A DNA stretch of 64,000 nucleotides from Candidatus Parcubacteria bacterium. Lineage in GTDB: Bacteria; Patescibacteriota; Patescibacteriia; 2-12-FULL-60-25. The stretch is taken from assembly GCA_039796615.1 (NCBI GenBank), contig JBDKJL010000038.1:78033-142032 (forward strand), written 5' to 3'. A program made the position numbers and the translations under genes. The stretch's first letter is position 1; each line of letters begins with the position of its first letter. Shown in pieces: positions 4,626-28,906 of the stretch. The notes under the pieces were generated by a model that did no database searches, was not told the DNA's origin, and was given only the letters and a program-made list of their open reading frames with translations.

Positions 4626-4677
4626 AGGAACCTCGCTTGTTGAGAGACACTAGCTCGTTATTGAGACTAGCGAAACG

Positions 4678-11924: not shown

Positions 11925-12461
11925 TCAGAGGTTTGGGAGTTCGATTTGGAACCACTCGCATTCGCCGAGGCTGATGTCGAGTATATGATCGTCCTCGCCA
12001 CTCAAGTAGTAGCCAATGCCTACGGCTAGAATGGCGTGCCCAAGGACCGCGACATCCTCGAAATCTTCGGGTTCACTCTCCTGAATTTTTTGGAGGATCA
12101 CGCCGCCTCCCACCGCAGCATATTCGAGTATCGCTTGTTTCGCGGGGGAGTTGAGGTAGTCACGCAATGGTGCGTACTGCAGTGTGGCAAAGGCGAGGTT
12201 CATCGCCTCCGTCCATGCGGGGTTGAGCCCGAAATATAGCTCTTCCTGCACGAACTCGGGAGGGCGCCCGATGGCGATTTCTGTGGTGCGGCAAGCTCGT
12301 GGAGCCGCTGATGCGAGGACGATACGCGGAGAAAATCCATCTGCTCTCCACTGCTTACCGAGTTCTTCGGCTTGCAGGGTTCCTTTGGCAGAAAGCGGAC
12401 GATCTCTGTCGTTTTTGGCCTGTTCTGTGTGCGCATGGCGCCCGATGCGAATTCTTTTCAA
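11925..12461 (-). CDS. Histidine phosphatase family protein, SixA-like (candidate phosphohistidine phosphatase)
   Basis: This 178-aa ORF has N-terminal IRIGRHAHTEQ...RPLSAKGTLQAEELG (RH catalytic dyad) and a VAVLGHAILA second-His motif. Size and layout are those of SixA-type short histidine phosphatases. Confidence 0.7.
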   Translation of the reverse strand: MKRIRIGRHAHTEQAKNDRDRPLSAKGTLQAEELGKQWRADGFSPRIVLASAAPRACRTTEIAIGRPPEFVQEELYFGLNPAWTEAMNLAFATLQYAPLRDYLNSPAKQAILEYAAVGGGVILQKIQESEPEDFEDVAVLGHAILAVGIGYYLSGEDDHILDISLGECEWFQIELPNL

Positions 12462-12503
12462 AGGTGCCTACTTTCTTACTGATCCCGAGATTGGGATGAT
12501 CTA

Positions 12504-12532
12504 ACTATAGCAAAAAATCACTAAAATGTCAA
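12504..12532 (-). promoter_or_regulatory. Sigma-70-type promoter (TTGACA-17-TATAGT)
   Basis: The minus strand reads TTGACATTTTAGTGATTTTTTGCTATAGT, about 40 nt upstream of ATG 12461. Confidence 0.55.
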
Positions 12533-12580
12533 GTTTAAGTGACTTTTTAGCTTAATTGGGCGATTATTCTAAATCAGGGG

Positions 12581-14080
12581 TTAGGCGCGTTTGAGAACGG
12601 TCACGGTTCCCTTATTCGCGTCTACTTCTACAAGATCACCATCTTTAATCACTTTTGTGGCGATTTTTGTGCCGATGATGCAGGGCTTTTTCATTTCGCG
12701 GGCAACGATGGCGGCATGGCAGGTAATTCCTCCCTCGTCGGTAACGAACGCCGCCGCTTTTTGCATGGCGGGGAGATAGTCCGGGCGGGTCATCACGGCA
12801 ACCACGATGTCCCCTTCTTGCACCTTATTGATCTCTTCAACGCTTTCCAAGATGCAGGCGCGGCCTTGAGTAATTCCTTTGCTCGCCACAAAGCCTTTTA
12901 GCGATTGCCCTTCGGCGTGCGAGGTGTTTCCGGTGCCGATGAGGTCGAGTGTTTTAATGAGTGTTTGATCCGTTGTTACGTCGTAGATATCTTTTTCCCA
13001 AAAAATGATGCAGTACTCAATCCGTCGATCCAGTTCGGCGGGATCGATGCGTTCTGCGAGGATGTCGGGGATTTCGGGCGGGAACGCATATTTGAGCTGC
13101 TCAAGTGTGTAATGAGTGCGATTCGCGATCTCCTCCAGCAGAAGACTGAAATAGTGCGTCGCCCAGAACGTTCCTTTTTTTCGTTCATCCTGCCAGGCGT
13201 TCATGTCGTCTGTGATGCGTAAAAGCGTGATGAGCTCTTGCGGAAGCTCGAGCGTATGGATGAGTGCATCTTTTTCAGCGCGATGGGTGGTTGCGAGGGA
13301 TTGAATGGTGGCGATACGTTCATCGATTTTTTCTCCCAACATCTTTTCTAAACGGGCGTCGAAAAACGCCTCATCCAACATGTGGTCTTTAACGTAATTA
13401 TTTTGGATCCAGAAAAAGGAATCCCGATGCGCGCGTATCAGCGCTTGCCGCTGGGATGGATCGGCTTGAACCTGTTTTGCGATCGCAAGGAGCGCGATCT
13501 CTTCCTCTTGTAAAAAGGAGGTGAACACGGGAGCGGTGAGCGTGGCGAAGGATTCTACAAAGGAATGCGCCATCCCGCGTGTTTCCAAGTGCTCTTTGAT
13601 TTTTGAAGCGATCAACGCGTCCGTGCTCAGGGAAAACCCGTCGATGAGCGGTGAGGCGTTGAGCTTTTTTGTGTAAATATCCGCCAACTGTTCGTACGCA
13701 GCACGAAGGTCCGCCGTGCTCCACGCCGCACGGTTTGCCTGGGCGATCGCCGCGCATGCCGTGTAGAATTGTTCTTGCCAGGGCAAGAATGCCTGAACGA
13801 TTTTTTGGCTTACATCCGGATCGTGTGTTGCCGCCTCGATCATTTGTGAGGCCGTGTATGTGAGCTCTTCCAGGCTGTGATACCAATCTGCACGATTTTT
13901 TGAGAATCCAGCATAAGCCAGGCGTTGCCCGAATGGGTATGTGGTGTCTTGGATGCTCGAGATATGGGCATCCCCCAAAAAGAACATGAAGTGCGGGCAC
14001 GCATCAAAGCGTTGCCGGTACCATGTGGCCTTTTCGATCTTCTGCATCCGTTCCTGAATGAGTCCGATATGTTGTTTCAT
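12581..14080 (-). CDS. Single-module protein: unassigned helical domain plus PEP-utilising-enzyme mobile (swivel phosphohistidine) domain
   Basis: This 499-aa ORF ends in GFVASKGITQGRACIL...VVAVMTRPDYLPAMQKAAAFVTDEGGITCHAAIVAREMKKPCIIGT...DGDLVEVDANKGTVTVLKRA. It has no ATP-grasp domain and no TIM barrel. Its ATG lies 3 nt after the stop of the giant gene. Confidence 0.85.
   Translation of the reverse strand: MKQHIGLIQERMQKIEKATWYRQRFDACPHFMFFLGDAHISSIQDTTYPFGQRLAYAGFSKNRADWYHSLEELTYTASQMIEAATHDPDVSQKIVQAFLPWQEQFYTACAAIAQANRAAWSTADLRAAYEQLADIYTKKLNASPLIDGFSLSTDALIASKIKEHLETRGMAHSFVESFATLTAPVFTSFLQEEEIALLAIAKQVQADPSQRQALIRAHRDSFFWIQNNYVKDHMLDEAFFDARLEKMLGEKIDERIATIQSLATTHRAEKDALIHTLELPQELITLLRITDDMNAWQDERKKGTFWATHYFSLLLEEIANRTHYTLEQLKYAFPPEIPDILAERIDPAELDRRIEYCIIFWEKDIYDVTTDQTLIKTLDLIGTGNTSHAEGQSLKGFVASKGITQGRACILESVEEINKVQEGDIVVAVMTRPDYLPAMQKAAAFVTDEGGITCHAAIVAREMKKPCIIGTKIATKVIKDGDLVEVDANKGTVTVLKRA
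12584..12895 (-). repeat. Swivel phosphohistidine domain copy 9 (in the downstream satellite gene)
   Basis: The catalytic His codon of GGITCHAAIV is at 12716..12718. Domain limits are approximate. Confidence 0.8.
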
Positions 14081-14083
14081 AGG

Positions 14084-17000
14084 TTAGGCGCGTTTAAGAA
14101 TGGTAACGGTGCCGGTGTTCGCGTCCACTTCTACCTCATCCCCATCGTGGAGAGCTTGCGTGGCAACTTTGGTTCCTACAAGGCAGGGTTTTTTGAGCTC
14201 GCGGCTCACAATGGCCGCATGAGAGGTGAGACCGCCGGTATCGGTGAGGATGGCGGCGGATTTTTTCATCGCAAAGACGTATTCCGGGGATGTCATGGGC
14301 GCGACCAATATTTCGCCATCTTGGAAGGTTGCTTGTTCGGGATCGAGTAAAATGCGCACCTTGCCCGTGGCTTTACCCGGGCTTGCGATGGTACCGTGAA
14401 AGGAATCCACAAGCGCCTCAAATTTTTCTTGCGCAAAGATTTCCCAATAGTGTTTTGCATCCGCTTCGTGAAAACGCTCCACGCGGTGAACACCATGGAA
14501 CCCTCCATATGAACGTAGAGTGACGCGCTGTTTCTCCCGGATAACACGTGGAATTTCGTCCCAGAACAGGTCGAGAAGGGCGTCGGCATCATTCCCGGTG
14601 CGTCGTGCCGCTTCTTGCAGAAGAAGATATTTGTAATGCAGGCCGATAAAAATATATTTTTTGCGTTCGTCTTGCCACTCAATATTTTTAACAGCCGTTT
14701 CGGCGATATGCTGGATATTCTTATTTAATTTGAATTTTTTGATGCACGCCGTTTTTTTCTTCTGGACGTCTTTAAGACGTGCGGCCGCCGCATCGTCAAA
14801 ATCCTGCGGAATCTCCTTTTTCCGCTCGCGGAAAAATTCTTCGTCTAAGACGCGTACGCCCCCATAGCTATTTTTGAGCCAGTAGTATTTTTTAGCGTGT
14901 GCGGAAATATTTTGTGTTTTGAGGAGCTCGCTCTCCTCTTCTTGGTAGAACGACGCCTCTTCCGGCGCTAACAATACTTCCATGGCTTCTTTGCGTTCTT
15001 TCTCTTGAGGGATGACGTGCGCAAGCTCCGTTTCAAGTAACACATCTGCCCCATAGTTTCCAAGTTCCGGTGGAATAGTGGGTGTCCAGAAGGCGATCAT
15101 CTTTTGATGGTAGTCCGTCCACAGGTCGAGGAACGCGTCATCCGAAAGAGATGTAATGTCGAGTGTATCTATGCGCTGCTGTGTTTTTTCGAGTACCGCA
15201 ATAGCCTCTTTCCATTCTGCATACAACCCTGCACGAAACGGCTCATCAAGCATCTGCGTTTGGAAAACGCGTACGGCCTCTTTTTGCAGAGAAGGAAAGT
15301 CGTTAATCCACACCATACGCTTTTCATGGAACAGCATGAGCCACTCTGGCCAGGGGTATCCGAACCGTTTTTCGAGCATCTCACCACATTCCGTAATAAA
15401 CTCCGACACGAAAAACACGCGTCCCGGCACAGGCCCCCATCGGAATACATTCTTCCCTGCTGGAATACTGACAGGTGTGGAAGATGGATACTCGGTGGAT
15501 GCGCGATGCAGAATTTTGATGATGCCGGTGTTCGCGTCCACCTCCACTTCATCTCCGTTATGGAGCACTTGGGTTGCGATTTTGGTGCCGATGATGCAGG
15601 GCTTCTTCATTTCGCGGCTTACGATGGCCGCGTGGGAGGTGATACCGCCGCTATCGGTAACGAATGCGGCTGCTTTTTGCATGATCGGAACGTAGGCGGG
15701 CGTTGTTTCGGGCGCAACGAGAATCTCGCCTTCTTGAAATGCTTCCATTTCATTTGGCATAAACATCACACGGACAATCCCGGCAACGCGGCCTTTGTTT
15801 GCGATAGATCCCTTAAACGTCGTAATCGCTGTTTCTTGTTTGGGAATAAATTGATCTACAAATGCCTGGAGCTCTGCTCCGGTAACCACAACGATACGGC
15901 CTTGGTGCATAAACGCCCCATGGCCAACTTTTCGTTTTTCAATTTCTGCCGCGTTTGCCTTGATCCCTTGTTGGCACCATTCGATAATTTCTTGGTGCGT
16001 GAGCCAAATAAAATCCTCGTAAGAGATTCCAAGCTTTTTAGACAAATGAGAAAAAAGTGGCCGCGCGGCGTAGCTTACGCGATTCACCGTTTCGGCCGTT
16101 TGTAATCGAAGCCATGCAAATAATCGGGCGACTTCGAGGGCGAAGTGAAGATCCGGGGCGTCGCTTATCGATGCCTTGTGGATTGGCGCGTCTGTGACGG
16201 TATTTATATCTTCGATGAGTCGCTGCGCCGTGTAAGGCGTTCCCCAAAAATGGTGCGTCCCCACCCAGGCGTATGTATCAACTAACTGTTGGAGGCGCTG
16301 ATAGAGCGCGGGATCGTTTGCCTGTAAGCGACCCAACGCTGCGTCGTCCATGTGTTTGTAGCCGTGATTTTCCAAATCCTCCCGGAAGGAAAGAAGCTCC
16401 TGTTTCTGCTCCATGGAAAACGTTTTTCGATCTGGATGCATGTGGCCGGACAGTTCTTCGAGCGCATATCCGTGCTTCCGTGCCGTTTCGGTAATGAAGT
16501 CTTGACCAACATCTCCGATGTAAAAAATCCCGGCCCACGAACCCGTAATCTGGTGGTAGCGGTTAAAGAATTCCCGGAACAATGCGACAGGTTCTTCATC
16601 TGTGAAACGCTCCAGCCTGTCGATGAGTTCCGTGAAGTGATTCAGTGCCTTTTCTGAACGGGCGACATATTCCTGGAAAAAGGAAATATCGTTGATTTTT
16701 AATTTTTCTTTTGTGAGTGCCTTGATCGCGTGGCTACTTTTTGCATCAAAGAATCCGTGCCCGTCGAACGTGAGCACCTCGCCAGTTACCTGGATCCCGA
16801 ACGCTTTTAATGTCTCCCCCTCCCCCCACTGGAACCAGGGCGACCAAGCAAGCGTAGGGCCTTTCCATTGACCCATGTAAACGTAATCCTCTTTACGGAA
16901 AGAGGGGGCGTCTGGAGTATGACGTTTAAGAATTCGAACAATGCCGTTGTTTGCGTCTACCTCCACTTCATCGCCATCCTGCAGTGTATGCGTTGCCGTT

Positions 17001-20000: not shown

Positions 20001-23000
20001 AAGACATCCCCTTCTTGAACGTGCACCATGTCGCTTTGTTTCTTTACGATTTGCACACGCCCCCGTACGATTCCTTTATAGGCCACCTGACCCGTGATCG
20101 TGTCGGACGTAGAGATGGCGGTCTCTTTATACGTATATTCTGGATGACTCTGGCCGAATGCCTCGAGTGTCCCGCGGTAATGCTCCGTTCCGTCGATCAT
20201 CACAAATGCCTGCAGCCGCTGCTTCAGCTCTTCTTCAGACGGAAGCGCGTTTAATTCATGTGGGAGCACCACGCCCGCCAGCTCCTCAGAGATGCCTCCA
20301 AGATGGGCGATCATTTTTCTTACAAAAAGATCATTTTCTGCAAAGAAATCCGTGTCTTTTCTTGATTGTACGGAGATCGCTTTTGCGGCATCCGGGCTAC
20401 GGTCATCCAATCCTGAATAAAAGAACAGCGTGAGTTTGAAGATCGCATCGTAAATCAAGTCCGTATATTCTTTGATATCCACGACGTCTGTGAGAGGTCC
20501 CTTTGAGCGTAATTGCGCAAGCCGTACGAGCGGTGCTTTATACGCACGAGCGAGCTCTTCTAAAAATGCCGGATTGGCATTCGCGGATAGGAGTTTTTCC
20601 TGGAACCAGTTGAAGGCTTTTTCGTGTTCCCAAATTTCTACAACCCCTTGATGAACATAATGCGTTAGCATCGGCGGAAACGGATTTTCCCAGCCGAGTG
20701 TTGATTTAATCTGTTCCGTTAAACTCTTTACCCACAACACCTGCATGAAGAGCGTGGTGTCACGGGAATAGGATTTTTTGAAGACGGCTTTTTTATCTGC
20801 TTCTGTGCGTTTCAAAATCCGCACAACGCCATTATTCGCGTCCAACTCCACCTCATCCCCATCTTTGATGGCCTGTGTCGCGATTTTTGCGCCGATGATG
20901 CATGGCACATTGAGTTCGCGGCTCACGATGGCGGCATGGGAAGAAATACCTCCTTCATCGGTGATGATGCCGCCTGCCTTGCGCATGAGGGGGACAAATT
21001 CAGGCCGCGTCATCATGGTGATGAGGATGTCACCCCGCTGTAATCGTTTTGCGGCCGGGCTATCTGGCGATGGCACGATGCGCGCGATTCCTTTGACGTA
21101 GCCTTGGCATGCGACGGCGCCTTTGATTTCATCGACATCTGTACGTGGGAGACGCTTGCAGAGGCGTTCAAAGAGCTCTGTCGCCTTATCCCCCTCAAGA
21201 TACGAGATGTTATTTTCGTGATAGATCGCAATAATCCCCTCGCGTTCGCGACGCTTGAGCATTTCGGCATCGATAGATCCTAAAAAGACGTCTTTTACCT
21301 CGTCGAGTGTGAGATCATTTAGGAGTGCGCGATCGATTCCCTGTCGTGCAAGGCCTTCACAAACGAGTCGCGTACAGCCATAAAGGCCGACATAATTGAA
21401 TCGCTTACGGTCATCACGCCAGATAGCGAGCGTTTGAAAAATTTCAAGAGGGTTTTCTTTTAATCCATGTTTCTTGAGAATTTTTTGTTGCTTTTTTGTC
21501 GGCGAAACGAACGGATGTACGTGGACGTCTTTTGCCTTCTCCCGCAGCCATTGTTCGTCGATTTCTTGGAACGTTTCGTAATCCGTACCGATCCAAAAAA
21601 ATTCGTTCAGGAATGCCTCCGCCGATTTCTTTCCCGCATTGAGGTCTGCGAGTGCCTGTTCAAGCTCTGTCACATACGATTGTTCCTGTGGCATGAGAAG
21701 ATCTGCGGCTTCTTGAGCCGAAAATCCATGCTGCTGCACGATACGGTGGATTTCTTCCTGATCAAATCCGGGATCAAATGAATCGAGGAAAAGGGAAATC
21801 CCCCACATTTCCTGATCTTTTTTGAGAACGGTTTGAAACCGCTCCCAAAGCTCTTCGTTGGTGAGTGTTTTGAGATCCGCTCGCCAGATTTCATGAGACG
21901 CCTCAAATAAGGCTTGTTTCAACCGCTTCCATTCCGTTTCCCATTCGGGTGGAAAACCGTTTTTTGTTCGTTCAAAAAAGGCGTCTGCGACCTGCTTCAT
22001 CCCCGCTAAGTCAAATAAGTTTGTGACGTGTTTTTCTTTGTAATACACACACCAATTCCCGTATCCGATGGAAAGGTATTTTTTAACTCCTTCAAATGAG
22101 GTAAGAGGATACGAAATTTGATGGAATCCGATTTTACCTCCTTGACGGTAGAGGGGGGCTTCTTGTGAAAAGGCTTCGTTGCCCGCCGCTTTTTTGAAAA
22201 TTCGCACAACGCCGTTGTTTGCATCCACTTCTACCTCATCTCCGTTATGGAGTATTTGGGTCGCGATGTTGGTGCCGATGATGCAAGGCTTTTTGAGTTC
22301 TCGGCTTGCGATTGCGGCATGGGATACGATCCCTCCTTCATCAGAAATGATCGCTGCGGCACGTTTCATGCCGACAATAAAATCCGGAGTGGTTGTACTC
22401 GCCACGAGGATTTCTCCTTCTTTGACCGTATTTGCATCCTGACGATTGCGTACGATGCGGACGTATCCACGCGCAACGCCAGGATAAGCGGAGACACCAC
22501 GGCACTCTGTCGCGGATGGATCTGCTGTGGGGATGACCAATTGGATGCGCTTTTGCATCTCTTTCATCGCCTCTCCGGTGAAAACGCCTTGCGGTGTGAT
22601 CAAATACCCCTGCGCACGTTCTTGTAGGGTTTGTGCTGAGGGCGCATGACCCGTTGTGCATTCTTCGACGGTCAGGAGGTCGCGATATTGAACGGGTACA
22701 CCTGTGAATTGGGCAATGGAGTTGCGGAGGACTGCATCGGCTCCTGGGATCATCTTTTCTCCGCGACGACGGAACGTCATGAGGCGTTCTACGATGTCTT
22801 TTTTTGTCGGTTGGTGCTCAAGATTTTCGATCCCCCACCAAACTCCCGTATACCATGACCATACGATTCGTAGTGCTTCGATAAACGACGCGAGTTCTTT
22901 TTGTGTGAGCGCGGATTCTTTTTGAACGATCTGCTCAACGGCGTCGTAGGCCTCGTTTGCGTATTTTAGAAGCCACTCGATATAAGACGCGTCTTGCTCG

Positions 23001-24175
23001 ATGCGGTGATTTACTTCTTCACCTTGTTTGAGCGTTTGTTTTTTATCGAGAAATAGTTGCTGCGCGCCGAGGCGGCCGACCGTTACAAAATATGGTTCGC
23101 TGAGAGATTGACCATCCATCCATGGCTGCGGACCACTTTCCACTTCCGTTGCAATTTGCATTGTCGCTAACGTGAAATCACGCGTTCCAAATAAATCCAA
23201 ACGCGGAATGGCTTCAGGAATTTCCTCTAACGGCTTCAACGTCGTAATCGGTCGGCTTTGCACGATGTAAAAAATTCCATCTTCCATCGCCCACTCAATA
23301 TCGCAGGGGAAACCATAGTGTTGCTCGATGCGGAGGATGAGGTTTGAAAGCTCTTGGATCTGCGGTTCGGTGAGCACTTGGGATTCGCCGAGGGCGGGTG
23401 AAAGGTCGCGCCATTCGTTGCCGCCGTGTGTTGAGCGATAGAGGGCGCGGGTTTGATGGCTTACGTTGATGTCGATAATCCGACGCGGATTTTTTTCCAC
23501 CACGTAGCTATCGGGGGTTACCTGGCCGCTCACGATGGCTTCGCCAAGGCCGAATCCGGCTTCGATAATCAGTTGGTTATAATCTTCGGTTACCGGATGC
23601 ACGGAAAACGCGATCCCGCTGGCGTCGCTTGCCACCATTTTTTGCACCACCACGGCCACGGAAATGCGCTGGCTGTGAAGATCTTTTTCAAACCGATAAA
23701 AAATGGCGCGTGGCGTAAAAAGCGATGCCCAGCAGTTTTGGACATTTTGGAGCAAGGTCTCTTCTGTCGTATTCAAAAAACTATCGAGCTGCCCGGCCCA
23801 GGCGGCGCTGGCGCTGTCTTCGGCGGTGGCAGAGGAGCGCACGGCAACGTGTTCGGCACCGAGTGCCTTAAACTGCACGCGAATATCTTCGGCGATGTCT
23901 TGAGGCATCGCGACACTTTTGATGAGCGCCTGGATTTTTGCCGAAGCCTGCTCCACCGTATGAATCTCCTGATGATTTACGGTGTGGAGCGTGGCGTCGA
24001 TTTCTGTATTCAGCTCTGTTTCCTCCAAAAATCGGTCAAATGTGCTCGCGAGCACCACAAATCCCGGTGGCACCGGGATCCCCGCCTGGGTCATCTCCCC
24101 CAAGGACGCGCCTTTTCCCCCGGCATCCCCCACATCCTCTTTAGAGAGCGCAGAGAACGGTTTTGAGATGGGCAT
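14084..24175 (-). CDS. Giant (3363 aa) PpsA/rifampicin-phosphotransferase-like protein: one ATP-grasp domain followed by seven [helical domain + swivel phosphohistidine domain] modules
   Basis: This is a single uninterrupted ORF starting at ATG 24175. The N-terminus has PPDK_N/PpsA motifs (GGKGASLGEMTQAGIPVPPGF, VAVRSSATAEDSASAAWAGQ, IIEAGFGLGEAIVSGQVTPD, DIEWAMEDGIFYIVQSRPIT). Seven GG-x-x-[SC]-HAAI-x-[SA]-RE...PC-I/V-I/V-G...DGDEVE-V/L-DA-x-x-G motifs place the catalytic His at aa 619, 1080, 1421, 1884, 2375, 2848 and 3319. I did not recognise a PEP/pyruvate-binding TIM barrel. Confidence 0.9.
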   Translation of the reverse strand: MPISKPFSALSKEDVGDAGGKGASLGEMTQAGIPVPPGFVVLASTFDRFLEETELNTEIDATLHTVNHQEIHTVEQASAKIQALIKSVAMPQDIAEDIRVQFKALGAEHVAVRSSATAEDSASAAWAGQLDSFLNTTEETLLQNVQNCWASLFTPRAIFYRFEKDLHSQRISVAVVVQKMVASDASGIAFSVHPVTEDYNQLIIEAGFGLGEAIVSGQVTPDSYVVEKNPRRIIDINVSHQTRALYRSTHGGNEWRDLSPALGESQVLTEPQIQELSNLILRIEQHYGFPCDIEWAMEDGIFYIVQSRPITTLKPLEEIPEAIPRLDLFGTRDFTLATMQIATEVESGPQPWMDGQSLSEPYFVTVGRLGAQQLFLDKKQTLKQGEEVNHRIEQDASYIEWLLKYANEAYDAVEQIVQKESALTQKELASFIEALRIVWSWYTGVWWGIENLEHQPTKKDIVERLMTFRRRGEKMIPGADAVLRNSIAQFTGVPVQYRDLLTVEECTTGHAPSAQTLQERAQGYLITPQGVFTGEAMKEMQKRIQLVIPTADPSATECRGVSAYPGVARGYVRIVRNRQDANTVKEGEILVASTTTPDFIVGMKRAAAIISDEGGIVSHAAIASRELKKPCIIGTNIATQILHNGDEVEVDANNGVVRIFKKAAGNEAFSQEAPLYRQGGKIGFHQISYPLTSFEGVKKYLSIGYGNWCVYYKEKHVTNLFDLAGMKQVADAFFERTKNGFPPEWETEWKRLKQALFEASHEIWRADLKTLTNEELWERFQTVLKKDQEMWGISLFLDSFDPGFDQEEIHRIVQQHGFSAQEAADLLMPQEQSYVTELEQALADLNAGKKSAEAFLNEFFWIGTDYETFQEIDEQWLREKAKDVHVHPFVSPTKKQQKILKKHGLKENPLEIFQTLAIWRDDRKRFNYVGLYGCTRLVCEGLARQGIDRALLNDLTLDEVKDVFLGSIDAEMLKRREREGIIAIYHENNISYLEGDKATELFERLCKRLPRTDVDEIKGAVACQGYVKGIARIVPSPDSPAAKRLQRGDILITMMTRPEFVPLMRKAGGIITDEGGISSHAAIVSRELNVPCIIGAKIATQAIKDGDEVELDANNGVVRILKRTEADKKAVFKKSYSRDTTLFMQVLWVKSLTEQIKSTLGWENPFPPMLTHYVHQGVVEIWEHEKAFNWFQEKLLSANANPAFLEELARAYKAPLVRLAQLRSKGPLTDVVDIKEYTDLIYDAIFKLTLFFYSGLDDRSPDAAKAISVQSRKDTDFFAENDLFVRKMIAHLGGISEELAGVVLPHELNALPSEEELKQRLQAFVMIDGTEHYRGTLEAFGQSHPEYTYKETAISTSDTITGQVAYKGIVRGRVQIVKKQSDMVHVQEGDVLVAPMTTPDFLSAMKRASAFVTDEGGVICHAAIVAREMKKPCIIGTKIATQALHDGDEVEVDADNGVVRILNRAQNAESKNRTYTRINQDVDTSVLTLENVWRGVRDTRIKEQIGLSEPDAFLEVVNGSVINYYTEEEPSRTLIQTCADAVLTNRPLLDELKEKTITHSNEIWAYANEVREQIEVCPVSNYPAILARAYEIQADCTRFGMVVAFADVFGAVTERLMSVFAQRKNLPHPASYYATVLGAPEALSHTEQAYADIRQSSASSAELQKKYFWLDQGYIGTGLTDEQIAHIRESVAPSPKAPHAALQKELALTEQEAQLFRTVRDIIFIKTIRTEARQALFVIVNRMLKRLAAEYNVPVRLLGTLTAQELIAVIEGAASLPTNLEERWKHAVIIKNGDGCAVITGSEADAYVKTRVIPPKTENNGELKGQVAQSGTARGTVKLVFGPQHNGKVEEGDILISTATSPQLLPAMKKAAAFITDVGGITSHAAIVARELKKPCIVGTKIATQVLQDGDEVEVDANNGIVRILSRQSEQKLLAQKFIDELGGDKIYPPLHNYSLFIFGSRYNTEKYYSPVFHCGVNYGLINIRHHGQTQTLIPEKTFPCYAIEGFETFLKDPSSLERRLEQFHKNFPTVDALYETYRCPYIKNQPESALVATIQHAFDQFWETNAWSHFSLFFDIDLCWNVVQSANLNISRQDIETIWQRATEMVAESFDRAQKRDLLCRIIAKEPEETLLESCQYFWTSYRNVYALEQVREELQKTYGAFLHDIEHARAELAYMDHEQAEKKDAFNRWIRTLSAEQALIVRYCQTVMQTRDERKNHFAKGITVAWRIAERLFQEAGVDRKLIENILPCQELIQGSSYVASIKDELLKREEEYVVYVPYSGPIEISYDRVEENAKLIHEAFVGETEKGTNEIHGSIGNKGYARGSVRVIKSLDQFSSFQFGEILVTGMTRPEYVPLMREAAAIVTDEGGITCHAAIVSRELNKPCIIGTRTATHTLQDGDEVEVDANNGIVRILKRHTPDAPSFRKEDYVYMGQWKGPTLAWSPWFQWGEGETLKAFGIQVTGEVLTFDGHGFFDAKSSHAIKALTKEKLKINDISFFQEYVARSEKALNHFTELIDRLERFTDEEPVALFREFFNRYHQITGSWAGIFYIGDVGQDFITETARKHGYALEELSGHMHPDRKTFSMEQKQELLSFREDLENHGYKHMDDAALGRLQANDPALYQRLQQLVDTYAWVGTHHFWGTPYTAQRLIEDINTVTDAPIHKASISDAPDLHFALEVARLFAWLRLQTAETVNRVSYAARPLFSHLSKKLGISYEDFIWLTHQEIIEWCQQGIKANAAEIEKRKVGHGAFMHQGRIVVVTGAELQAFVDQFIPKQETAITTFKGSIANKGRVAGIVRVMFMPNEMEAFQEGEILVAPETTPAYVPIMQKAAAFVTDSGGITSHAAIVSREMKKPCIIGTKIATQVLHNGDEVEVDANTGIIKILHRASTEYPSSTPVSIPAGKNVFRWGPVPGRVFFVSEFITECGEMLEKRFGYPWPEWLMLFHEKRMVWINDFPSLQKEAVRVFQTQMLDEPFRAGLYAEWKEAIAVLEKTQQRIDTLDITSLSDDAFLDLWTDYHQKMIAFWTPTIPPELGNYGADVLLETELAHVIPQEKERKEAMEVLLAPEEASFYQEEESELLKTQNISAHAKKYYWLKNSYGGVRVLDEEFFRERKKEIPQDFDDAAAARLKDVQKKKTACIKKFKLNKNIQHIAETAVKNIEWQDERKKYIFIGLHYKYLLLQEAARRTGNDADALLDLFWDEIPRVIREKQRVTLRSYGGFHGVHRVERFHEADAKHYWEIFAQEKFEALVDSFHGTIASPGKATGKVRILLDPEQATFQDGEILVAPMTSPEYVFAMKKSAAILTDTGGLTSHAAIVSRELKKPCLVGTKVATQALHDGDEVEVDANTGTVTILKRA
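14087..14398 (-). repeat. Swivel phosphohistidine domain copy 8 (giant protein module 7, C-terminal)
   Basis: The motif is GGLTSHAAIVSRELKKPCLVGT, with the His codon at 14219..14221. Limits are approximate. Confidence 0.8.
15500..15811 (-). repeat. Swivel phosphohistidine domain copy 7 (module 6)
   Basis: The motif is GGITSHAAIVSREMKKPCIIGT, with the His codon at 15632..15634. Confidence 0.8.
16919..17230 (-). repeat. Swivel phosphohistidine domain copy 6 (module 5)
   Basis: The motif is GGITCHAAIVSRELNKPCIIGT, with the His codon at 17051..17053. Confidence 0.8.
18392..18703 (-). repeat. Swivel phosphohistidine domain copy 5 (module 4)
   Basis: The motif is GGITSHAAIVARELKKPCIVGT, with the His codon at 18524..18526. 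Confidence 0.8.
19781..20092 (-). repeat. Swivel phosphohistidine domain copy 4 (module 3)
   Basis: The motif is GGVICHAAIVAREMKKPCIIGT, with the His codon at 19913..19915. Confidence 0.8.
20804..21115 (-). repeat. Swivel phosphohistidine domain copy 3 (module 2)
   Basis: The motif is GGISSHAAIVSRELNVPCIIGA, with the His codon at 20936..20938. Confidence 0.8.
22187..22498 (-). repeat. Swivel phosphohistidine domain copy 2 (module 1)
   Basis: The motif is GGIVSHAAIASRELKKPCIIGT, with the His codon at 22319..22321. Confidence 0.8.
23215..24175 (-). other. ATP-grasp nucleotide-binding domain (PPDK_N type) of the giant protein; the only one in the locus
   Basis: It covers aa 1 to about 320 of the giant ORF and carries the PpsA N-terminal motifs listed above. 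The lower boundary is approximate. Confidence 0.8.
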
Positions 24176-24214
24176 ATGTTTATACCCCTTTTTATCGCGT
24201 TTTCGGGGGGTTGT

Positions 24215-25690
24215 CTAGGCGGCTGTGCGGCGTAAAATCCGAACGGTTCCGTGGTTTGCGCGAACCTCCACCAGGTCACCATCGTTAATCGCCTGCGTGG
24301 CGGTTTGTGTGCCGATCACACACGGCTTTCCGAGCTCTCGTGAAACGATGGCGGCATGGCAGGTGATCCCCCCTTCGTTTGTGATAATGGCCAACGCTTT
24401 TTTCATGAGCGGCACAAACTCCGGGCGGGTCATGCTGGTAACCAGAATCTCTCCTTCCTGGAACGATGGGAAATCCGCTTCCGCTAAAATCACGCGCGCG
24501 ATGCCCTTTGCGTACCCCTGCGAGGCGGTTCGGCCATAGAGAATATCTTGCGCGGCGGCACCGGCGAACGCTTGTTCAAGATCAGCGTTGAGCGATTGCG
24601 CTTCTGCGCCCTCAAAGAGCGTTGCGTCTTCTGAAGTTACACGGATCACGACGCCTTCTTCATATCGGTGCTTGAGCGTGTCTGCGGTTAACGACCCATC
24701 GAGGACCTGATCTATTTCGTGCATGGCCAGGAATCGAAGGAGGCGATTCGCGATGCCCGTTTGTTTTTCGAGGTGTACGAGATACGCCTCAATCACATGA
24801 AACCCCATCAGGTTGATTTTTTTACGATGTTCGCGCCAGGCCGTGAGCGCATTAAAAAACCAGAGTGGATTTTCTTTTAATCCATGCGTTTTCGTAATGG
24901 CACGAATGGACGCTTCTTTTGTGGTTGTATAGGCGCGGAGTTCGGCGAGATCTTGTTGGAGACGGTGAGAGTCTCCGGCATAAATGCGCGCTTCATCAAG
25001 AATTTCTTGATCCGTAATTGGTTTAAGACGCGCGTAATTTGCTTGGACGTAATCGAACTGCTGCCGATACGACGTGAGAATGTCTTTGTGCGTGATAAGG
25101 AGGCTATCAAGCATCTCTGGGGAGATCTGAATTTTTTGCAAGAGTTCCAAAAAGGCTTGTTTGCGTTCGTCCGCAAACGTCATTTCGGATGGTGTGGAGA
25201 GGACTTGGACCTCTTCTTTGTTAAGCCCGTGCTGTTCGGCAATTTTTTTGATCTCTTCTTGATCGACGCCAGTATCGAATGCGTCGATAAAAAGGCTCGA
25301 ATCCCAAAAAGCGTGGTAGGCGGTACGGAGTTGTTGAAATGTTTCTCGTGCCGTTGTGGTATCTGCGAATACGGATGGATCGAATGTTTTATGGTAGAGC
25401 GTTTCGATGGCTTGAGCGTGTGCGAGATAGGCTGCATATTGCGTTTGATAGCCCTCTTGCGTGCCGTATTGTTGATAATAGAGCCGAGCGAGATGTTGGA
25501 GCGCCTCAAAATCCCAATACAAAACGCCGTATGTTTTTTGGAAAAACGCATGGAGATCTCCGAACGCGCCACGCTCTCCATTGGCGTTGAGCGCGAATGA
25601 GCCCGCAACATCCATCCATGGCCAGCAGGTGATGGGCATGATTTCACCCTCTTGTTTATAGAGTTTTTTGGGGAGAGGGCGGGGTGTCAT
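24215..25690 (-). CDS. Single-module protein: unassigned helical domain plus swivel phosphohistidine domain (upstream satellite)
   Basis: This 491-aa ORF ends in GRTASQGYAKGIARVIL...ILVTSMTRPEFVPLMKKALAIITNEGGITCHAAIVSRELGKPCVIGT...DGDLVEVRANHGTVRILRR. It stops 39 nt before the start of the giant gene. The exact start is uncertain. Confidence 0.85.
   Translation of the reverse strand: MTPRPLPKKLYKQEGEIMPITCWPWMDVAGSFALNANGERGAFGDLHAFFQKTYGVLYWDFEALQHLARLYYQQYGTQEGYQTQYAAYLAHAQAIETLYHKTFDPSVFADTTTARETFQQLRTAYHAFWDSSLFIDAFDTGVDQEEIKKIAEQHGLNKEEVQVLSTPSEMTFADERKQAFLELLQKIQISPEMLDSLLITHKDILTSYRQQFDYVQANYARLKPITDQEILDEARIYAGDSHRLQQDLAELRAYTTTKEASIRAITKTHGLKENPLWFFNALTAWREHRKKINLMGFHVIEAYLVHLEKQTGIANRLLRFLAMHEIDQVLDGSLTADTLKHRYEEGVVIRVTSEDATLFEGAEAQSLNADLEQAFAGAAAQDILYGRTASQGYAKGIARVILAEADFPSFQEGEILVTSMTRPEFVPLMKKALAIITNEGGITCHAAIVSRELGKPCVIGTQTATQAINDGDLVEVRANHGTVRILRRTAA
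24218..24535 (-). repeat. Swivel phosphohistidine domain copy 1 (in the upstream satellite gene)
   Basis: The His codon of GGITCHAAIV is at 24356..24358. Confidence 0.8.
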
Positions 25691-25736: not shown

Positions 25737-26132
25737 TTAGTCGCTCACGATAACGGTGAATCCGCCAAAGGACATACGCTTCATATCAAAAGGCATGGGT
25801 TTATTTTTATATTTGGGGTCGTTCATGCTGGAGTCTTTCATCACCTTTGCGTTTACCTGATCGCGATGTGCGCGGCTCTTGTAGGTGATGTAGGAAAAAA
25901 TAATCACTTCGCTCGGTTTTTGTTTCACGATTTTGGGGAACGTAAGCGTAACGCCTTTAGGCTTGAGATCATCCCCTACGCACTCTTTATAATCCAACGC
26001 ACCGTATTTTTTCCAAATACGGCACCCTTCTGCGGCCATGCGGCGATAGGCAGGCAAATTCTTTTTAGACACGACAAGGAGGAAGCCGTCCACGTAGCGG
26101 GAAGATGTTTTCATAGGAGGAGATTGTAGCAT
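25737..26132 (-). CDS. DUF1428 family protein
   Basis: The sequence is (M)KTSSRYVDGFLLVVSKKNLPAYRRMAAEGCRIWKKYGALDYKECVGDDL...FDMKRMSFGGF, which is the typical DUF1428/YbaA-like sequence pattern. ATG 26114 is an alternative start. Confidence 0.7.
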   Translation of the reverse strand: MLQSPPMKTSSRYVDGFLLVVSKKNLPAYRRMAAEGCRIWKKYGALDYKECVGDDLKPKGVTLTFPKIVKQKPSEVIIFSYITYKSRAHRDQVNAKVMKDSSMNDPKYKNKPMPFDMKRMSFGGFTVIVSD

Positions 26133-26206
26133 GGGGATTTTAGTGCGTCTTGGTTGAACTGATAAGGAATCCTTAATAGGTGCTCTGTCTATTCATCTAA
26201 ACGCTT

Positions 26207-26692
26207 CTATCGCATCGGTGCCGTAAATTTCTTCGGATCAAACGCTGTCGCCAGTGGTACGATTTGTGCCGCGAGGGTTGGGAGGTGTTGTTGGAGCTCC
26301 TCTTTGGAAAAGAAACGGATTTCTCTACATTCTTCTGTGGGCGTGAAGTCGAGATGTTCCAGTTCCATGCGGAAGATGACGGTGAGGACGTAATACCATT
26401 CCATCCCACGTCCGGTTCCATGTCGGGTTGTCCAGATATAGGTGGGCGTTTCTTCGATTTGCGTAACGGACAGCCCCATTTCTTCTCGAACTTCGCGTTT
26501 GATGGCGTCTGTAAACTGTTCTCCAAAATCAAGACCCCCACCGGGCAACTCCCATTCAGGGCGGGGGTCTGTGGCACTTCGCCCGGTAAAATCTTTTACG
26601 AGGAGTACCTTCCCGTCACGTACACACATTCCTTTAGCCGTGACGCGGTAAAAAGCATCTGGGAAATCCGGAGAGATTTGCGGAGGTTTCAT
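26207..26692 (-). CDS. NUDIX hydrolase
   Basis: This 161-aa ORF has the Nudix box GGGLDFGEQFTDAIKREVREEMGL. Confidence 0.85.
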   Translation of the reverse strand: MKPPQISPDFPDAFYRVTAKGMCVRDGKVLLVKDFTGRSATDPRPEWELPGGGLDFGEQFTDAIKREVREEMGLSVTQIEETPTYIWTTRHGTGRGMEWYYVLTVIFRMELEHLDFTPTEECREIRFFSKEELQQHLPTLAAQIVPLATAFDPKKFTAPMR

Positions 26693-26700
26693 AGCGACGT

Positions 26701-27615: not shown

Positions 27616-27669
27616 ATGAGAGGTCGATATTATTCGGAGGTTCTTAGCATACCGCATGCCGCCACGATC

Positions 27670-28823: not shown

Positions 28824-28906
28824 AAAGGAGTATCTCACCGCATGGTAGACAAAATCCCCATTTCTCGATAGGGTGTGCCACGCACGCATTCAAGGAGGTT
28901 TTACAC

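What the first reader, a model, noticed from the sequence alone, without database searches (positions are those of the whole stretch)
11925..25690. One ATP-grasp domain and nine phosphohistidine swivel domains: a 3363-aa multi-headed PpsA/RPH-like phosphotransferase with two single-module satellite genes
Three co-directional, almost abutting minus-strand genes form this locus: 24215..25690, 14084..24175 and 12581..14080, with gaps of 39 nt and 3 nt.

Seen in the sequence:
- Together they encode exactly one PpsA/PPDK-type ATP-grasp nucleotide-binding domain (giant protein aa 1 to ~320; motifs GGKGASLGEM, VAVRSSATAEDS, DIEWA..YIVQSRPIT).
- They also encode nine copies of the PEP-utilising-enzyme mobile domain with an intact catalytic His (GG-x-x-[SC]-HAAI...PC[IV][IV]G...DGD.VE[VL][DR]A).
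- The nine His codons are at 24356, 22319, 20936, 19913, 18524, 17051, 15632, 14219 and 12716.
- Inside the giant ORF the His-to-His spacing is 341-491 aa.
- Each swivel domain is preceded by its own roughly 230-380-aa helical region that I cannot assign to a family.
- I recognised no PEP/pyruvate-binding TIM barrel (the third domain of PpsA/PPDK/PTS enzyme I) in any of the three proteins.

From established knowledge: the characterised architecture that is ATP-grasp plus substrate-binding domain plus swivel His without a TIM barrel is the rifampicin phosphotransferase (RPH) family, and that family has one substrate domain and one His.

Inference: this may be an array of RPH-like heads, each with a diverged substrate-binding domain, all charged by a single ATP-grasp domain. 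Heads 1 and 9 would be charged in trans. That would make a multi-substrate small-molecule (antibiotic or xenobiotic) phosphotransferase or a long His-to-His phosphorelay. I do not know of a described system with this layout.
Basis: partly seen in the sequence, partly recalled or inferred. Interest (0 to 1): 0.92.

Follow-up and report, generated by a model that had tools for sequence, protein, structure and literature searches.

The report
Nine-headed RPH-like dikinase array
A tiny-genome Parcubacteria bacterium spends about 14 kb on a kinase machine with one ATP-binding domain and nine different rifampicin-phosphotransferase-like "heads"; the same one-to-many design recurs, as giant proteins or as rows of separate genes, across ultrasmall bacteria and archaea, and I found no paper describing it.

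Summary
Three abutting minus-strand genes (491, 3363 and 499 aa) hold exactly one PPDK_N ATP-grasp domain, nine PEP-utilizers swivel domains with intact His, and no PEP/pyruvate TIM barrel.

The unassigned "helical regions" match no Pfam family. AlphaFold2 plus Foldseek and profile searches show they are diverged rifampin-phosphotransferase (RPH) acceptor-binding domains. Three heads keep RPH's catalytic R-E/D-x-x-K motif 159-162 residues before the His.

The layout is not a one-off or an assembly artefact:
- About 47 other proteins of 1850-4275 aa from CPR bacteria and DPANN archaea have one ATP-grasp plus 3-9 heads, drawn combinatorially from about 15-20 head types.
- Other genomes carry the same system unfused: up to 14 single-head genes in a row, a lone 315-aa ATP-grasp, and often a His_Phos_1 phosphatase.
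- These arrays are often led by an Xre-HTH-fused head that is the orthologue of the first gene here.

Best reading: a hub-and-spoke small-molecule water dikinase in which one ATP-grasp charges many substrate-specific heads, in cis and in trans. Acceptors are unknown. A regulatory, PTS-like role is a live rival.

It is a new variant of a known kind and was not found in the searched literature. Interest 0.8.

The parts
24215..25690 (-). SatA: free-standing head (type-4 RPH-like acceptor domain aa 1-378, then swivel, His445). It is the first gene of the block. It is the orthologue, lacking the HTH, of the Xre-HTH-fused heads that lead arrays in other Patescibacteria.
   Evidence: AF2 pLDDT 94.4 and Foldseek top hit RPH. 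R286-E287-x-x-K290 aligns with RPH R666/E667/K670. HTH-fused homologues; 33-36% identity to the L088, L089 and L007 HTH-heads.
23216..24175 (-). The only ATP-grasp (PPDK_N) nucleotide-binding domain of the locus, giant aa 1-320. It is the proposed hub.
   Evidence: PF01326 aa 18-314, 317.7 bits. Foldseek: RPH ATP-grasp 5hv6 TMt 0.93, rmsd 1.9 A, 38% identity; HpeI 9goj TMt 0.70. 69% identical to a stand-alone ATP-grasp gene in L007.
22193..23215 (-). Head B1 (giant aa 321-661): short type-0 module plus swivel, His619.
   Evidence: AF2 of aa 1-661 gives pLDDT 89.7 and its best match is full-length RPH. Type 0 is linked to the long types through type 10 by hhalign.
20810..22192 (-). Head B2 (aa 662-1122): type-4 module plus swivel, His1080. 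Motif R920-D-D-R-K924.
   Evidence: 25% identity to the SatA module, E 6e-31.
19787..20809 (-). Head B3 (aa 1123-1463): short type-0 module plus swivel, His1421.
   Evidence: Homologous to free-standing 335-341-aa heads in L088 and L003 (E 2e-19, 4e-35).
18398..19786 (-). Head B4 (aa 1464-1926): type-3 module plus swivel, His1884.
   Evidence: Type 3 is homologous to type 4 over 333 columns, hhalign probability 99.5.
16925..18397 (-). Head B5 (aa 1927-2417): type-2 module plus swivel, His2375. Motif R2213-D-E-R-K.
   Evidence: Homologous to free-standing heads in L088 and L007.
15506..16924 (-). Head B6 (aa 2418-2890): type-7 module plus swivel, His2848.
14084..15505 (-). Head B7 (aa 2891-3363, plus stop): type-4 module plus swivel, His3319. 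Motif Q-D-E-R-K.
   Evidence: 38% identical over 348 aa (E 3e-81) to a free-standing 478-aa head gene in L007, which shows fusion/fission equivalence.
12581..14080 (-). SatC: free-standing head (type-4 module plus swivel, His455). Motif Q-D-E-R-K.
   Evidence: 63% identical to a free-standing 494-aa head in the L088 array.
11925..12461 (-). 178-aa His_Phos_1 (histidine-phosphatase superfamily) protein with an intact RH...S...R catalytic core. It is a recurrent partner of the arrays.
   Evidence: PF00300 E 9e-6; weak SixA-like hits. Core invariant across seven array-linked homologues. His_Phos_1 is the most frequent neighbour family across 16 multi-head loci, 6 of 149 ORFs.
12504..12532 (-). 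Strong sigma-70-like promoter match (TTGACA-17-TATAGT with TG, 11 of 12) between SatC and the His_Phos_1 gene. It may give the phosphatase its own transcription start.
   Evidence: This is a consensus match only; the number of matches in the region is not above the shuffle expectation.
25737..28889 (-). Co-directional upstream block: DUF1428, NUDIX, a glyoxalase-fold PF06983 protein, NUDIX, HAD hydrolase. These are possible accessory or house-cleaning genes; membership in the system is uncertain.
   Evidence: HAD (5 of 149) and NUDIX (3 of 149) are the next most frequent neighbour families of multi-head loci. HAD and glyoxalase genes are also adjacent in L001.

Best explanation
The locus encodes a hub-and-spoke small-molecule water dikinase of the RPH / HpeHI branch of the PEP-utilising superfamily.

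Proposed mechanism:
1. The single ATP-grasp domain (giant aa 1-320) binds ATP and transfers its beta-phosphate to the catalytic His of a swivel domain, releasing AMP and Pi. This step is inferred from the family mechanism.
2. There are nine such swivel domains. Each is tethered by a roughly 10-15-residue linker to its own RPH-like acceptor-binding domain. Seven of these heads follow one another in the same polypeptide and two are separate proteins (SatA, SatC).
3. Each charged swivel docks back on its own acceptor domain and passes the phosphate to a head-specific small molecule. The nine heads belong to five diverged module types, so several different acceptors are expected. Their identity is unknown.
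4. Charging of the satellites, and probably of distal heads, happens in trans.

Context:
- The giant gene is a fusion of what other CPR/DPANN genomes encode as an operon of separate genes.
- The adjacent His_Phos_1 phosphatase either resets phospho-His heads or acts on the phosphorylated products; which one is inferred and unresolved.
- In related genomes the first head carries an Xre HTH, so the phosphorylation or occupancy state of that head probably feeds back on transcription of the array.
For: Shown by the tools:
- Domain count: one PPDK_N, nine PEP-utilizers with intact His, no TIM barrel.
- Fold: SatA and giant aa 1-661 model with high confidence, and their best PDB matches are RPH over ATP-grasp, acceptor domain and swivel.
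- Motif: RPH's essential R666-E667 and K670 (PMC4844700) align with invariant R286-E287-x-x-K290 of the SatA family. The Arg-to-His distance is 159 residues in both. Heads B2 and B5 keep the motif exactly, and B7 and SatC keep it as Q-D-E-R-K.
- One superfamily: all long module types are mutually homologous (hhalign 96-99.9%), and the short types link to them through type 10.
- Conservation pattern fits a shared hub: the nine swivel cores are 59-74% identical to each other and the ATP-grasp is 69% identical to a stand-alone one elsewhere. The acceptor modules are at most 31% identical or not detectably similar.
- One ATP-grasp per protein: each of 46 listed giants (P0001-P0044, P0046, P0048) has exactly one GGKG[AS] motif, with 3-9 heads shuffled from about 15-20 types.
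- Split versions exist. They have a lone 315-337-aa ATP-grasp and 5-14 single-head genes (L007, L012, L013, L030, L088). Stand-alone ATP-grasp proteins make up all of the top 120 hits in CPR.
- Fusion/fission: a free head in L007 is the orthologue of internal head B7, and a free head in L088 is 63% identical to SatC.

From the literature: trans charging, and phosphotransfer by the head alone, were demonstrated for HpeHI (PMC12167813).
Against: - No acceptor is identified and no activity or expression data exist.
- Four of the nine heads (B1, B3, B4, B6) show only a conserved Arg-bearing helix, not the full R-E/D-x-x-K motif. They could be catalytically different or inactive.
- How a swivel 3000 residues from the ATP-grasp is charged is unknown. 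Linkers are short, and the model of aa 1-661 has pTM of only 0.60.
- The HTH-fused orthologues and the phosphatase partners fit a signalling system at least as naturally as a purely metabolic enzyme.
- The phosphatase profile resembles broad-specificity PhoE/CobC/PGM enzymes more than SixA, so a phospho-His reset role is unproven.
- Foldseek TM-scores for the multi-domain models are moderate (0.45-0.55).
Confidence: 0.7

Rival explanations
1. Regulatory phospho-signalling system. The heads are sensors or phospho-carriers whose His~P state, set by the ATP-grasp and reset by the His_Phos_1 phosphatase, controls transcription through the HTH-fused head and perhaps other proteins. This would be analogous to the PTS or to the PPDK-derived regulatory kinase VadK. 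Bulk phosphorylation of metabolites would not be the main purpose.
For: - Most SatA homologues carry an N-terminal Xre HTH.
- They are the first gene of arrays in L088, L089 and L009.
- His_Phos_1 is the commonest neighbour family, and the window's copy has its only PDB sequence hit in a putative SixA phosphohistidine phosphatase.
- VadK shows that an ATP-grasp plus swivel protein can be regulatory (PMC13400623).
Against: - The window's own SatA lacks the HTH.
- The second-site catalytic motif for transfer to a small molecule is invariant in the HTH family itself.
- Up to 14 diverged heads per genome is more than a simple switch needs.
- The phosphatase profile is generic.
- This reading is compatible with the main explanation rather than exclusive of it.
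Confidence: 0.15
2. Reverse operation. The heads take phosphate from scavenged phosphorylated compounds onto their His, and the ATP-grasp uses it to make ATP from AMP and Pi. This would be an energy-harvesting device for a fermentative symbiont.
For: - Head-level phosphotransfer is reversible in HpeH, which moves phosphate from 4-phosphoacetophenone to another phenol (PMC12167813).
- PPDK runs towards ATP in some anaerobes (established knowledge).
- CPR organisms have very limited ATP-generating capacity (established knowledge).
Against: - The ATP-grasp is of the PpsA/RPH (water dikinase) type, whose first partial reaction is strongly exergonic in the forward direction.
- Ordinary phosphate esters are too low in energy to drive the reverse reaction.
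- Nothing in the data bears directly on direction.
Confidence: 0.05
3. A long His-to-His phosphorelay passing phosphate from swivel to swivel along the chain.
For: Only the linear arrangement of seven swivel domains.
Against: - Each swivel is paired with its own acceptor domain that keeps RPH-like second-site residues.
- The same heads work as independent genes in other genomes, in varying order and number.
- Swivel-to-swivel transfer is not known in this superfamily.
Confidence: 0.03
4. A genuine phosphoenolpyruvate synthase, as the public record names it.
For: The giant exceeds the NCBIfam cut-offs for PEP synthase (NF005057: 1086 against 598 bits; TIGR01418: 1003 against 740). PDB sequence hits are led by PEP synthases.
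Against: - Those scores are sums over eight stretches, namely the ATP-grasp plus repeated swivels.
- No PF02896 PEP/pyruvate TIM barrel is present in any of the three proteins.
- The structure models match RPH better than PEP synthase.
- The name is therefore an annotation artefact of repeated domains.
Confidence: 0.01
5. An assembly chimera or decaying pseudogene created by repeats.
For: It is a MAG contig with nine repeated domains.
Against: - The repeats are only 64-72% identical at DNA level, far too diverged to mis-join.
- The ORF is open for 10,092 nt and all nine catalytic motifs are intact.
- About 47 independent giants come from other studies, in two domains of life.
- Flanking satellites are conserved in an archaeal locus.
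Confidence: 0.02

Closest known systems
Rifampin phosphotransferase RPH (RPH-Lm; PDB 5FBS/5FBT/5FBU, 5HV1)
   Same: - Same domain order: ATP-grasp, then helical acceptor-binding domain, then C-terminal swivel His. No TIM barrel.
- It is the best structural match for both models.
- The R-E-x-x-K second-site motif sits at the same distance from the His.
- The ATP-grasp is 38% identical, TMt 0.93.
   Different: - RPH has a 1:1:1 domain stoichiometry; here it is 1:9 (7 in cis, 2 in trans).
- The modules are too diverged for Pfam, and the giant scores below the NCBIfam RPH cut-off (654 against 999 bits).
- Two heads are short variants lacking about 130-150 residues of the helical domain.
- Rifampin as substrate is not implied.
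Two-component small-molecule dikinases HpeHI, CreHI and phenylphosphate synthase PpsAB
   Same: - The ATP-grasp and the acceptor-plus-swivel unit can be separate proteins with trans charging (PMC12167813).
- SatA and SatC have the HpeH architecture.
- Related CPR loci have a stand-alone ATP-grasp like HpeI.
- HpeI is a structural match of the hub.
   Different: - Those systems pair one ATP-grasp protein with one head protein for phenolic catabolism in free-living bacteria.
- Here one hub serves 5-14 diverged heads.
- The modules match the PRK08296 models only in the swivel region. That those models represent HpeH-like proteins is my assumption.
PEP synthase (PpsA) / pyruvate phosphate dikinase
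   Same: The ATP-grasp and swivel domains are closest in sequence to PpsA. The two-step His-mediated dikinase chemistry is the same.
   Different: No PEP/pyruvate TIM barrel. The swivel follows the acceptor domain instead of preceding it.
Bacterial PTS (Enzyme I, then HPr, then many Enzyme II; PRD-containing regulators)
   Same: - Functional analogy only: one energy-coupling entry point distributes phosphate through His to many substrate-specific units.
- One unit is coupled to transcription, and a His phosphatase (SixA acting on NPr) exists in the PTS-Ntr branch.
- The swivel domain is homologous to that of EI.
   Different: - The donor is ATP through an ATP-grasp, not PEP through a TIM barrel.
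- There is no HPr, EIIA/B or membrane permease.
- The acceptor domains are RPH-like.
VadK (Mtb Rv1127c), a PPDK-derived regulatory kinase
   Same: A PPDK-derived protein that autophosphorylates on a catalytic His and is used for regulation rather than central metabolism (PMC13400623).
   Different: The abstract describes one autophosphorylating kinase that acts through protein partners. I did not check its domain layout; nothing in the abstract suggests RPH-like acceptor domains or multiple heads.

Membership tests
RPH-type small-molecule dikinases (ATP-grasp + acceptor domain + swivel, no TIM barrel) | PpsA/PPDK-type ATP-grasp nucleotide-binding domain | tested here: met
   PF01326 aa 18-314, 317.7 bits. 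Foldseek to RPH ATP-grasp 5hv6: TMt 0.93, rmsd 1.9 A.
RPH-type small-molecule dikinases (ATP-grasp + acceptor domain + swivel, no TIM barrel) | Swivel phosphohistidine domain with the catalytic His in a GG-x-x-x-H loop | tested here: met
   Nine PF00391 matches, all with GG-x-x-[SC]-H-A-A-I.
RPH-type small-molecule dikinases (ATP-grasp + acceptor domain + swivel, no TIM barrel) | Helical acceptor-binding domain with the RPH RIF-BD fold, placed between ATP-grasp and swivel | tested here: met
   Directly tested for SatA (type 4) and for aa 1-661 (type 0) by AF2 and Foldseek. Extended to the other heads by hhalign homology, probability 96-99.9 among long types.
RPH-type small-molecule dikinases (ATP-grasp + acceptor domain + swivel, no TIM barrel) | Second-site catalytic residues equivalent to RPH R666, E667 and K670 | tested here: inconclusive
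   Exact in SatA, B2 and B5. Q-D-E-R-K in B7 and SatC. Only a conserved Arg helix in B1, B3, B4 and B6.
RPH-type small-molecule dikinases (ATP-grasp + acceptor domain + swivel, no TIM barrel) | One acceptor domain and one His per ATP-grasp (single-headed enzyme) | tested here: not met
   One ATP-grasp to nine heads in this locus.
RPH proper (rifamycin-inactivating phosphotransferase equivalog) | Score above the NCBIfam equivalog cut-off; rifampin phosphorylation | tested here: not met
   NF041857 scores 654 bits against a cut-off of 999, and NF000283 scores 453 against 1700, both summed over 8 stretches. Activity is not testable here.
PEP synthase / PPDK | C-terminal PEP/pyruvate-binding TIM barrel (PF02896) | tested here: not met
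   No PF02896 hit in any of the three proteins at E<=0.01. The modules alone give no Pfam hit.
Two-component dikinases (HpeHI / CreHI / PpsAB) | ATP-grasp and acceptor-plus-swivel on separate polypeptides, with trans phosphorylation | tested here: inconclusive
   SatA and SatC are head-only proteins. Related loci have a lone ATP-grasp. In this window the ATP-grasp is fused to seven heads. Trans transfer itself is not testable here.
PTS Enzyme I | HPr-binding subdomain plus PEP-binding TIM barrel | tested here: not met
   Only the swivel region matches EI models and structures.
Known anti-phage defence systems (PADLOC) | Match to any PADLOC protein model | tested here: not met
   No hits for five proteins of the locus.

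The most novel reading that the evidence does not exclude
CPR bacteria and DPANN archaea, which largely lack a PTS (my recollection, not checked here), may possess an ATP-driven functional counterpart of it. In this reading one highly conserved ATP-grasp 'entry enzyme' distributes phosphate through near-identical swivel His domains to a genome-specific set of 5-14 interchangeable substrate-specific heads. One head is fused to an Xre HTH and reports substrate availability or phosphorylation state to transcription. A dedicated His_Phos_1 phosphatase resets the system. It would be a combined salvage or detoxification and sensing network, built by fusion, fission and shuffling of about 15-20 head types exchanged between the two domains of life.
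Probability: 0.25. Interest if true: 0.92.

Novelty: new variant of a known kind. Interest (0 to 1): 0.8.

Why it matters
CPR and DPANN organisms have genomes of roughly 1 Mb (established knowledge, not measured here) and large gaps in their metabolism, yet this one spends about 14 kb on the system and relatives carry up to 14 heads. That implies strong selection.

If each head phosphorylates a different compound, the arrays could account for 'missing' kinases in these lineages or form a broad inactivation battery against host-derived or competitor compounds.

Mechanistically, a single nucleotide-binding domain serving many swivel carriers is a new solution in the PEP-utilising superfamily. 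The free fusion and fission of heads resembles modular assembly-line enzymes.

The HTH-fused heads would be a new class of one-component regulator gated by a phosphohistidine swivel.

In practice, public annotation pipelines name these proteins 'phosphoenolpyruvate synthase' because repeated swivel domains inflate the score. This wrongly credits these genomes with a gluconeogenic step.

Tried and rejected
- Pfam and NCBIfam on the nine modules alone gave nothing. NCBIfam PRK08296, RedH and PigC models match only the ATP-grasp or swivel parts.
- PADLOC defence models gave no hits, so a known defence system was dropped.
- A conserved ~250-aa accessory protein inside the arrays: all-against-all BLAST of candidate ORFs showed no single shared partner, only scattered pairs. 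Pfam on ten of them found a His_Phos_1, an HD, an M29 peptidase, a prenyltransferase and six unknowns.
- The partner phosphatase as a SixA-type phosphohistidine phosphatase: the single-sequence hit to a putative SixA is weak (E 0.024). A profile of seven partners hits broad PhoE/CobC/PGM enzymes far better than SixA, so no specific claim is made.
- A link between HTH-heads and sugar-phosphate operons was suggested by L006 but was not reproduced in L087, L088 or L089, so it was dropped.
- Repeat-driven misassembly was rejected on 64-72% DNA identity.
- The genome-contig scan was dominated by swivel-only matches to ordinary PpsA. Only about 30 of 79 loci were informative.


Full report
**1. Observation**

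The three minus-strand ORFs exist exactly as described: 24215..25690 (491 aa, here SatA), 14084..24175 (3363 aa) and 12581..14080 (499 aa, SatC). The gaps are 39 and 3 nt.

Pfam finds one PPDK_N ATP-grasp (giant aa 18-314, 317.7 bits). It finds seven PEP-utilizers swivel domains in the giant and one in each satellite, and no PF02896 TIM barrel.

All nine GG-x-x-[SC]-HAAI motifs are intact. The His residues are at giant aa 619, 1080, 1421, 1884, 2375, 2848 and 3319, at SatA 445 and at SatC 455.

At DNA level the nine 229-nt swivel-coding repeats are only 64-72% identical. Repeat-driven misassembly is therefore not a concern.

The exact protein is in public records as 'MAG: Phosphoenolpyruvate synthase [Candidatus Parcubacteria bacterium]' on a 153-kb contig. 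A fourth co-directional gene, 11925..12461, encodes a 178-aa His_Phos_1 protein.

**2. What the unassigned regions are**

None of the nine 232-388-aa regions matches a Pfam family. BLAST shows they are very diverged from one another, at most 31% identical and often not detectably similar.

- An AlphaFold2 model of SatA, built on 59 homologues, has pLDDT 94.4 and pTM 0.91. Its best PDB matches are the six RPH-Lm entries (E 3e-12 to 1e-10). The four best have TMq 0.51-0.55 over about 570-595 columns. Swivel-only hits start at E 2e-6.
- A profile of the same alignment matches RPH residues 664-866. It places RPH G-Y-R666-E667-Y-P-K670 on the family's W-R286-E287-H-R-K290.
- In RPH, R666 and E667 are essential for the second phosphotransfer and K670 belongs to the same network (PMC4844700).
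- The Arg-to-His distance is 159 residues in both proteins.
- Within the window, SatA, B2 and B5 keep R-[ED]-x-R-K. B7 and SatC have Q-D-E-R-K. B1, B3, B4 and B6 keep only an Arg-bearing helix.
- A model of giant aa 1-661 has pLDDT 89.7 and pTM 0.60. It matches full-length RPH best (E 6.5e-38), ahead of PEP synthase 2OLS (7e-24). Its ATP-grasp superposes on RPH's at TMt 0.93, 1.9 A and 38% identity, and on HpeI at TMt 0.70.

**3. The layout recurs**

A search with the giant returned, besides itself, 47 proteins of 1850-4275 aa. The sources that give a name assign them to Parcubacteria/Paceibacterota, Nanoarchaeota or 'archaeon' MAGs. Each of P0001-P0044, P0046 and P0048 has exactly one GGKG[AS] ATP-grasp motif and 3-9 swivel His. 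The hub is usually N-terminal but sometimes internal or C-terminal.

- Clustering the 220 inter-swivel modules gives about 15-20 recurring types in two size classes, about 230-260 and 350-410 aa. The types are combined differently in every protein. The window's giant reads 0-4-0-3-2-7-4, and both satellites are type 4.
- hhalign shows all long types are homologous over their full length (probability 96-99.9). The short types connect to them through type 10 as internal-deletion variants.
- A type-4 module profile finds 2825 cluster representatives among 1.84 billion (1601 at E<=1e-10). Most of the 150 best-scoring are single-head proteins of 450-570 aa.

**4. Fused and split forms of one system**

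Related loci encode the same parts as separate genes.

| Locus | Taxon as labelled | Content |
|---|---|---|
| L007 | Paceibacterota | ten head genes, an HTH-fused head, a lone 331-aa ATP-grasp, two His_Phos_1, one LMWPc |
| L012 | Nealsonbacteria | 14 swivel ORFs in 22 kb, plus a His_Phos_1 and an HD protein |
| L013 | labelled 'uncultured Gammaproteobacteria' (TPA MAG; label doubtful) | ten heads, then an ATP-grasp |
| L030 | Buchananbacteria | five heads with a 316-aa ATP-grasp |
| L088 | not named | HTH-head, then 673-aa ATP-grasp plus short head, then 493- and 494-aa heads, His_Phos_1, three more heads |
| L015 | Woesearchaeota | one 3768-aa protein with eight heads |
| L003 | archaeal gene context (family-A DNA ligase, tRNA-intron endonuclease) | a 3462-aa giant flanked by satellites, as here |

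- Orthology ties the forms together. L088's free 494-aa head is 63% identical to SatC. L007's free 478-aa head is 38% identical (E 3e-81) to internal head B7. The HTH-heads are the best matches of SatA.
- Stand-alone ATP-grasp proteins of 314-340 aa, 69-85% identical to one another, fill most of the top 120 hits; all 120 carry PF01326 only.
- Within the window the swivel cores are 59-74% identical, and the hub is 69% identical to L007's lone hub, while the modules are barely alignable. This is the pattern expected if every swivel must dock on one shared hub while the acceptor domains diversify.

**5. Neighbours**

Among 149 non-core ORFs around 16 multi-head loci, the most frequent Pfam families are His_Phos_1 (6), HAD hydrolase (5) and NUDIX (3).

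- The window itself has the His_Phos_1 gene downstream. Upstream it has DUF1428, two NUDIX genes, a glyoxalase-fold protein and a HAD hydrolase.
- The array-linked His_Phos_1 proteins keep the RH...S...R catalytic core.
- As a profile they resemble broad-specificity PhoE/CobC/PGM enzymes more than SixA. Their target, phospho-His head or phosphorylated product, is therefore open.

**6. Mechanism**

Shown by the tools:
- the domain inventory;
- the RPH-like fold;
- retention of the second-site motif in at least three heads;
- the one-hub-to-many-heads stoichiometry;
- the fusion/fission equivalence of heads;
- the recurrent phosphatase neighbours.

Taken from established knowledge of RPH and HpeHI (PMC4844700, PMC12167813): the ATP-grasp transfers the beta-phosphate of ATP to the swivel His, releasing AMP and Pi. 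The swivel then moves to the acceptor domain and phosphorylates a small molecule. A separate ATP-grasp protein can charge a head protein in trans, and a head alone can shuttle phosphate between substrates.

Inferred:
- the nine heads here are all charged by the one hub;
- they act on several different acceptors;
- the phosphatase resets or counteracts the system;
- the HTH-fused orthologues of the first head couple the system to transcription.

**7. Rivals**

- A mainly regulatory, PTS- or VadK-like role is the strongest rival, and it is partly compatible with the main reading.
- Reverse ATP-harvesting and a His-to-His relay have little support.
- The public name 'phosphoenolpyruvate synthase' is an artefact. 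The NCBIfam PpsA models are exceeded only because eight partial stretches are summed, and the TIM barrel is absent.

**8. Novelty**

Five full-text searches found RPH, the two-component dikinases, VadK and a CPR resistome survey that merely counts rph-like hits (PMC8651080). None describes multi-headed proteins or head arrays.

A 1:3 protein also exists in Chloroflexota, so multi-heading is not strictly confined to CPR/DPANN.

I class the finding as a new variant of a known kind: known chemistry and folds in a new one-to-many, modular, operon-scale architecture with regulatory and phosphatase partners.

Noticed in passing
P0075-P0193; L007:10001-11692, L088:9001-10674, L089:9001-10677, L009:9761-11437: A large Patescibacteria family of ~560-aa proteins fuses an Xre-type HTH (PF13443/PF01381/PF12844) to an RPH-like head with an intact swivel His and the R-E-x-x-K motif. 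It is usually the first gene of a head array. It looks like a new kind of one-component regulator gated by a phosphohistidine swivel. The window's SatA is its HTH-less orthologue.
   Followed up: partly
window 14084-24175: Annotation artefact. The giant passes the NCBIfam equivalog cut-offs for PEP synthase (1086 against 598 bits; 1003 against 740) only because repeated swivel domains are summed. This explains the public name 'Phosphoenolpyruvate synthase' despite the missing TIM barrel. Metabolic reconstructions of CPR/DPANN genomes may wrongly infer PpsA from such proteins.
   Followed up: yes
window 33155-33432 (-), with ORF 33332-33658 (-): A complete group I intron (Rfam RF00028, 85.9 bits, E 2e-20). 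It overlaps the 3' part of a 108-aa ORF whose Cys/His motifs look to me like an HNH endonuclease (judged by eye from the translation, no domain search run). No tRNA or rRNA gene was detected in the window, so the host gene is unidentified.
   Followed up: partly
window 30691-31734 (-) and the 30-32 kb region: A RhuM-family virulence protein gene (E 2e-105) lies in a stretch where GC drops to 0.43 against about 0.52 around it. This suggests a foreign or mobile insert next to the detox-like gene block.
   Followed up: no
window 4071-4649 (-) and 5999-7480 (-); L001:87-773: A second His_Phos_1 gene and an ABC-F type ATPase (two ABC_tran domains plus ABC_tran_Xtn) lie a few kb downstream of the locus. 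In L001 an ABC_tran_Xtn gene and a His_Phos_1 gene sit directly beside the 3111-aa giant, which hints at conserved synteny.
   Followed up: no
L087:18799-19689: A gene whose product combines HATPase_c/MORC-like domains with a PEP-utilizers swivel domain. It lies 8 kb from an HTH-head. This is an unusual fusion of a GHKL ATPase with a phosphohistidine swivel.
   Followed up: no
P0055-P0060: Very long PpsA-containing fusion proteins (1880-3269 aa), one of them named Candidatus Omnitrophota. They join a complete PEP synthase (with TIM barrel) to glycolytic enzymes: PGK, enolase, phosphoglycerate mutase, FBP aldolase and PFK.
   Followed up: no
P0052 and P0053: A Chloroflexota 1964-aa protein has one ATP-grasp and three swivel domains from a different RPH-like lineage. 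A 'Nymphon striatum' (sea spider assembly) 2528-aa protein has two ATP-grasp and two swivel domains. Multi-heading has therefore arisen outside CPR/DPANN too.
   Followed up: partly
L035-type record titles (e.g. L008, L013, L026, L037): Several contigs carrying typical CPR/DPANN head arrays are labelled 'uncultured Gammaproteobacteria' or 'Methanosarcinales' in third-party MAG assemblies. These are probably binning or labelling errors rather than true hosts.
   Followed up: no
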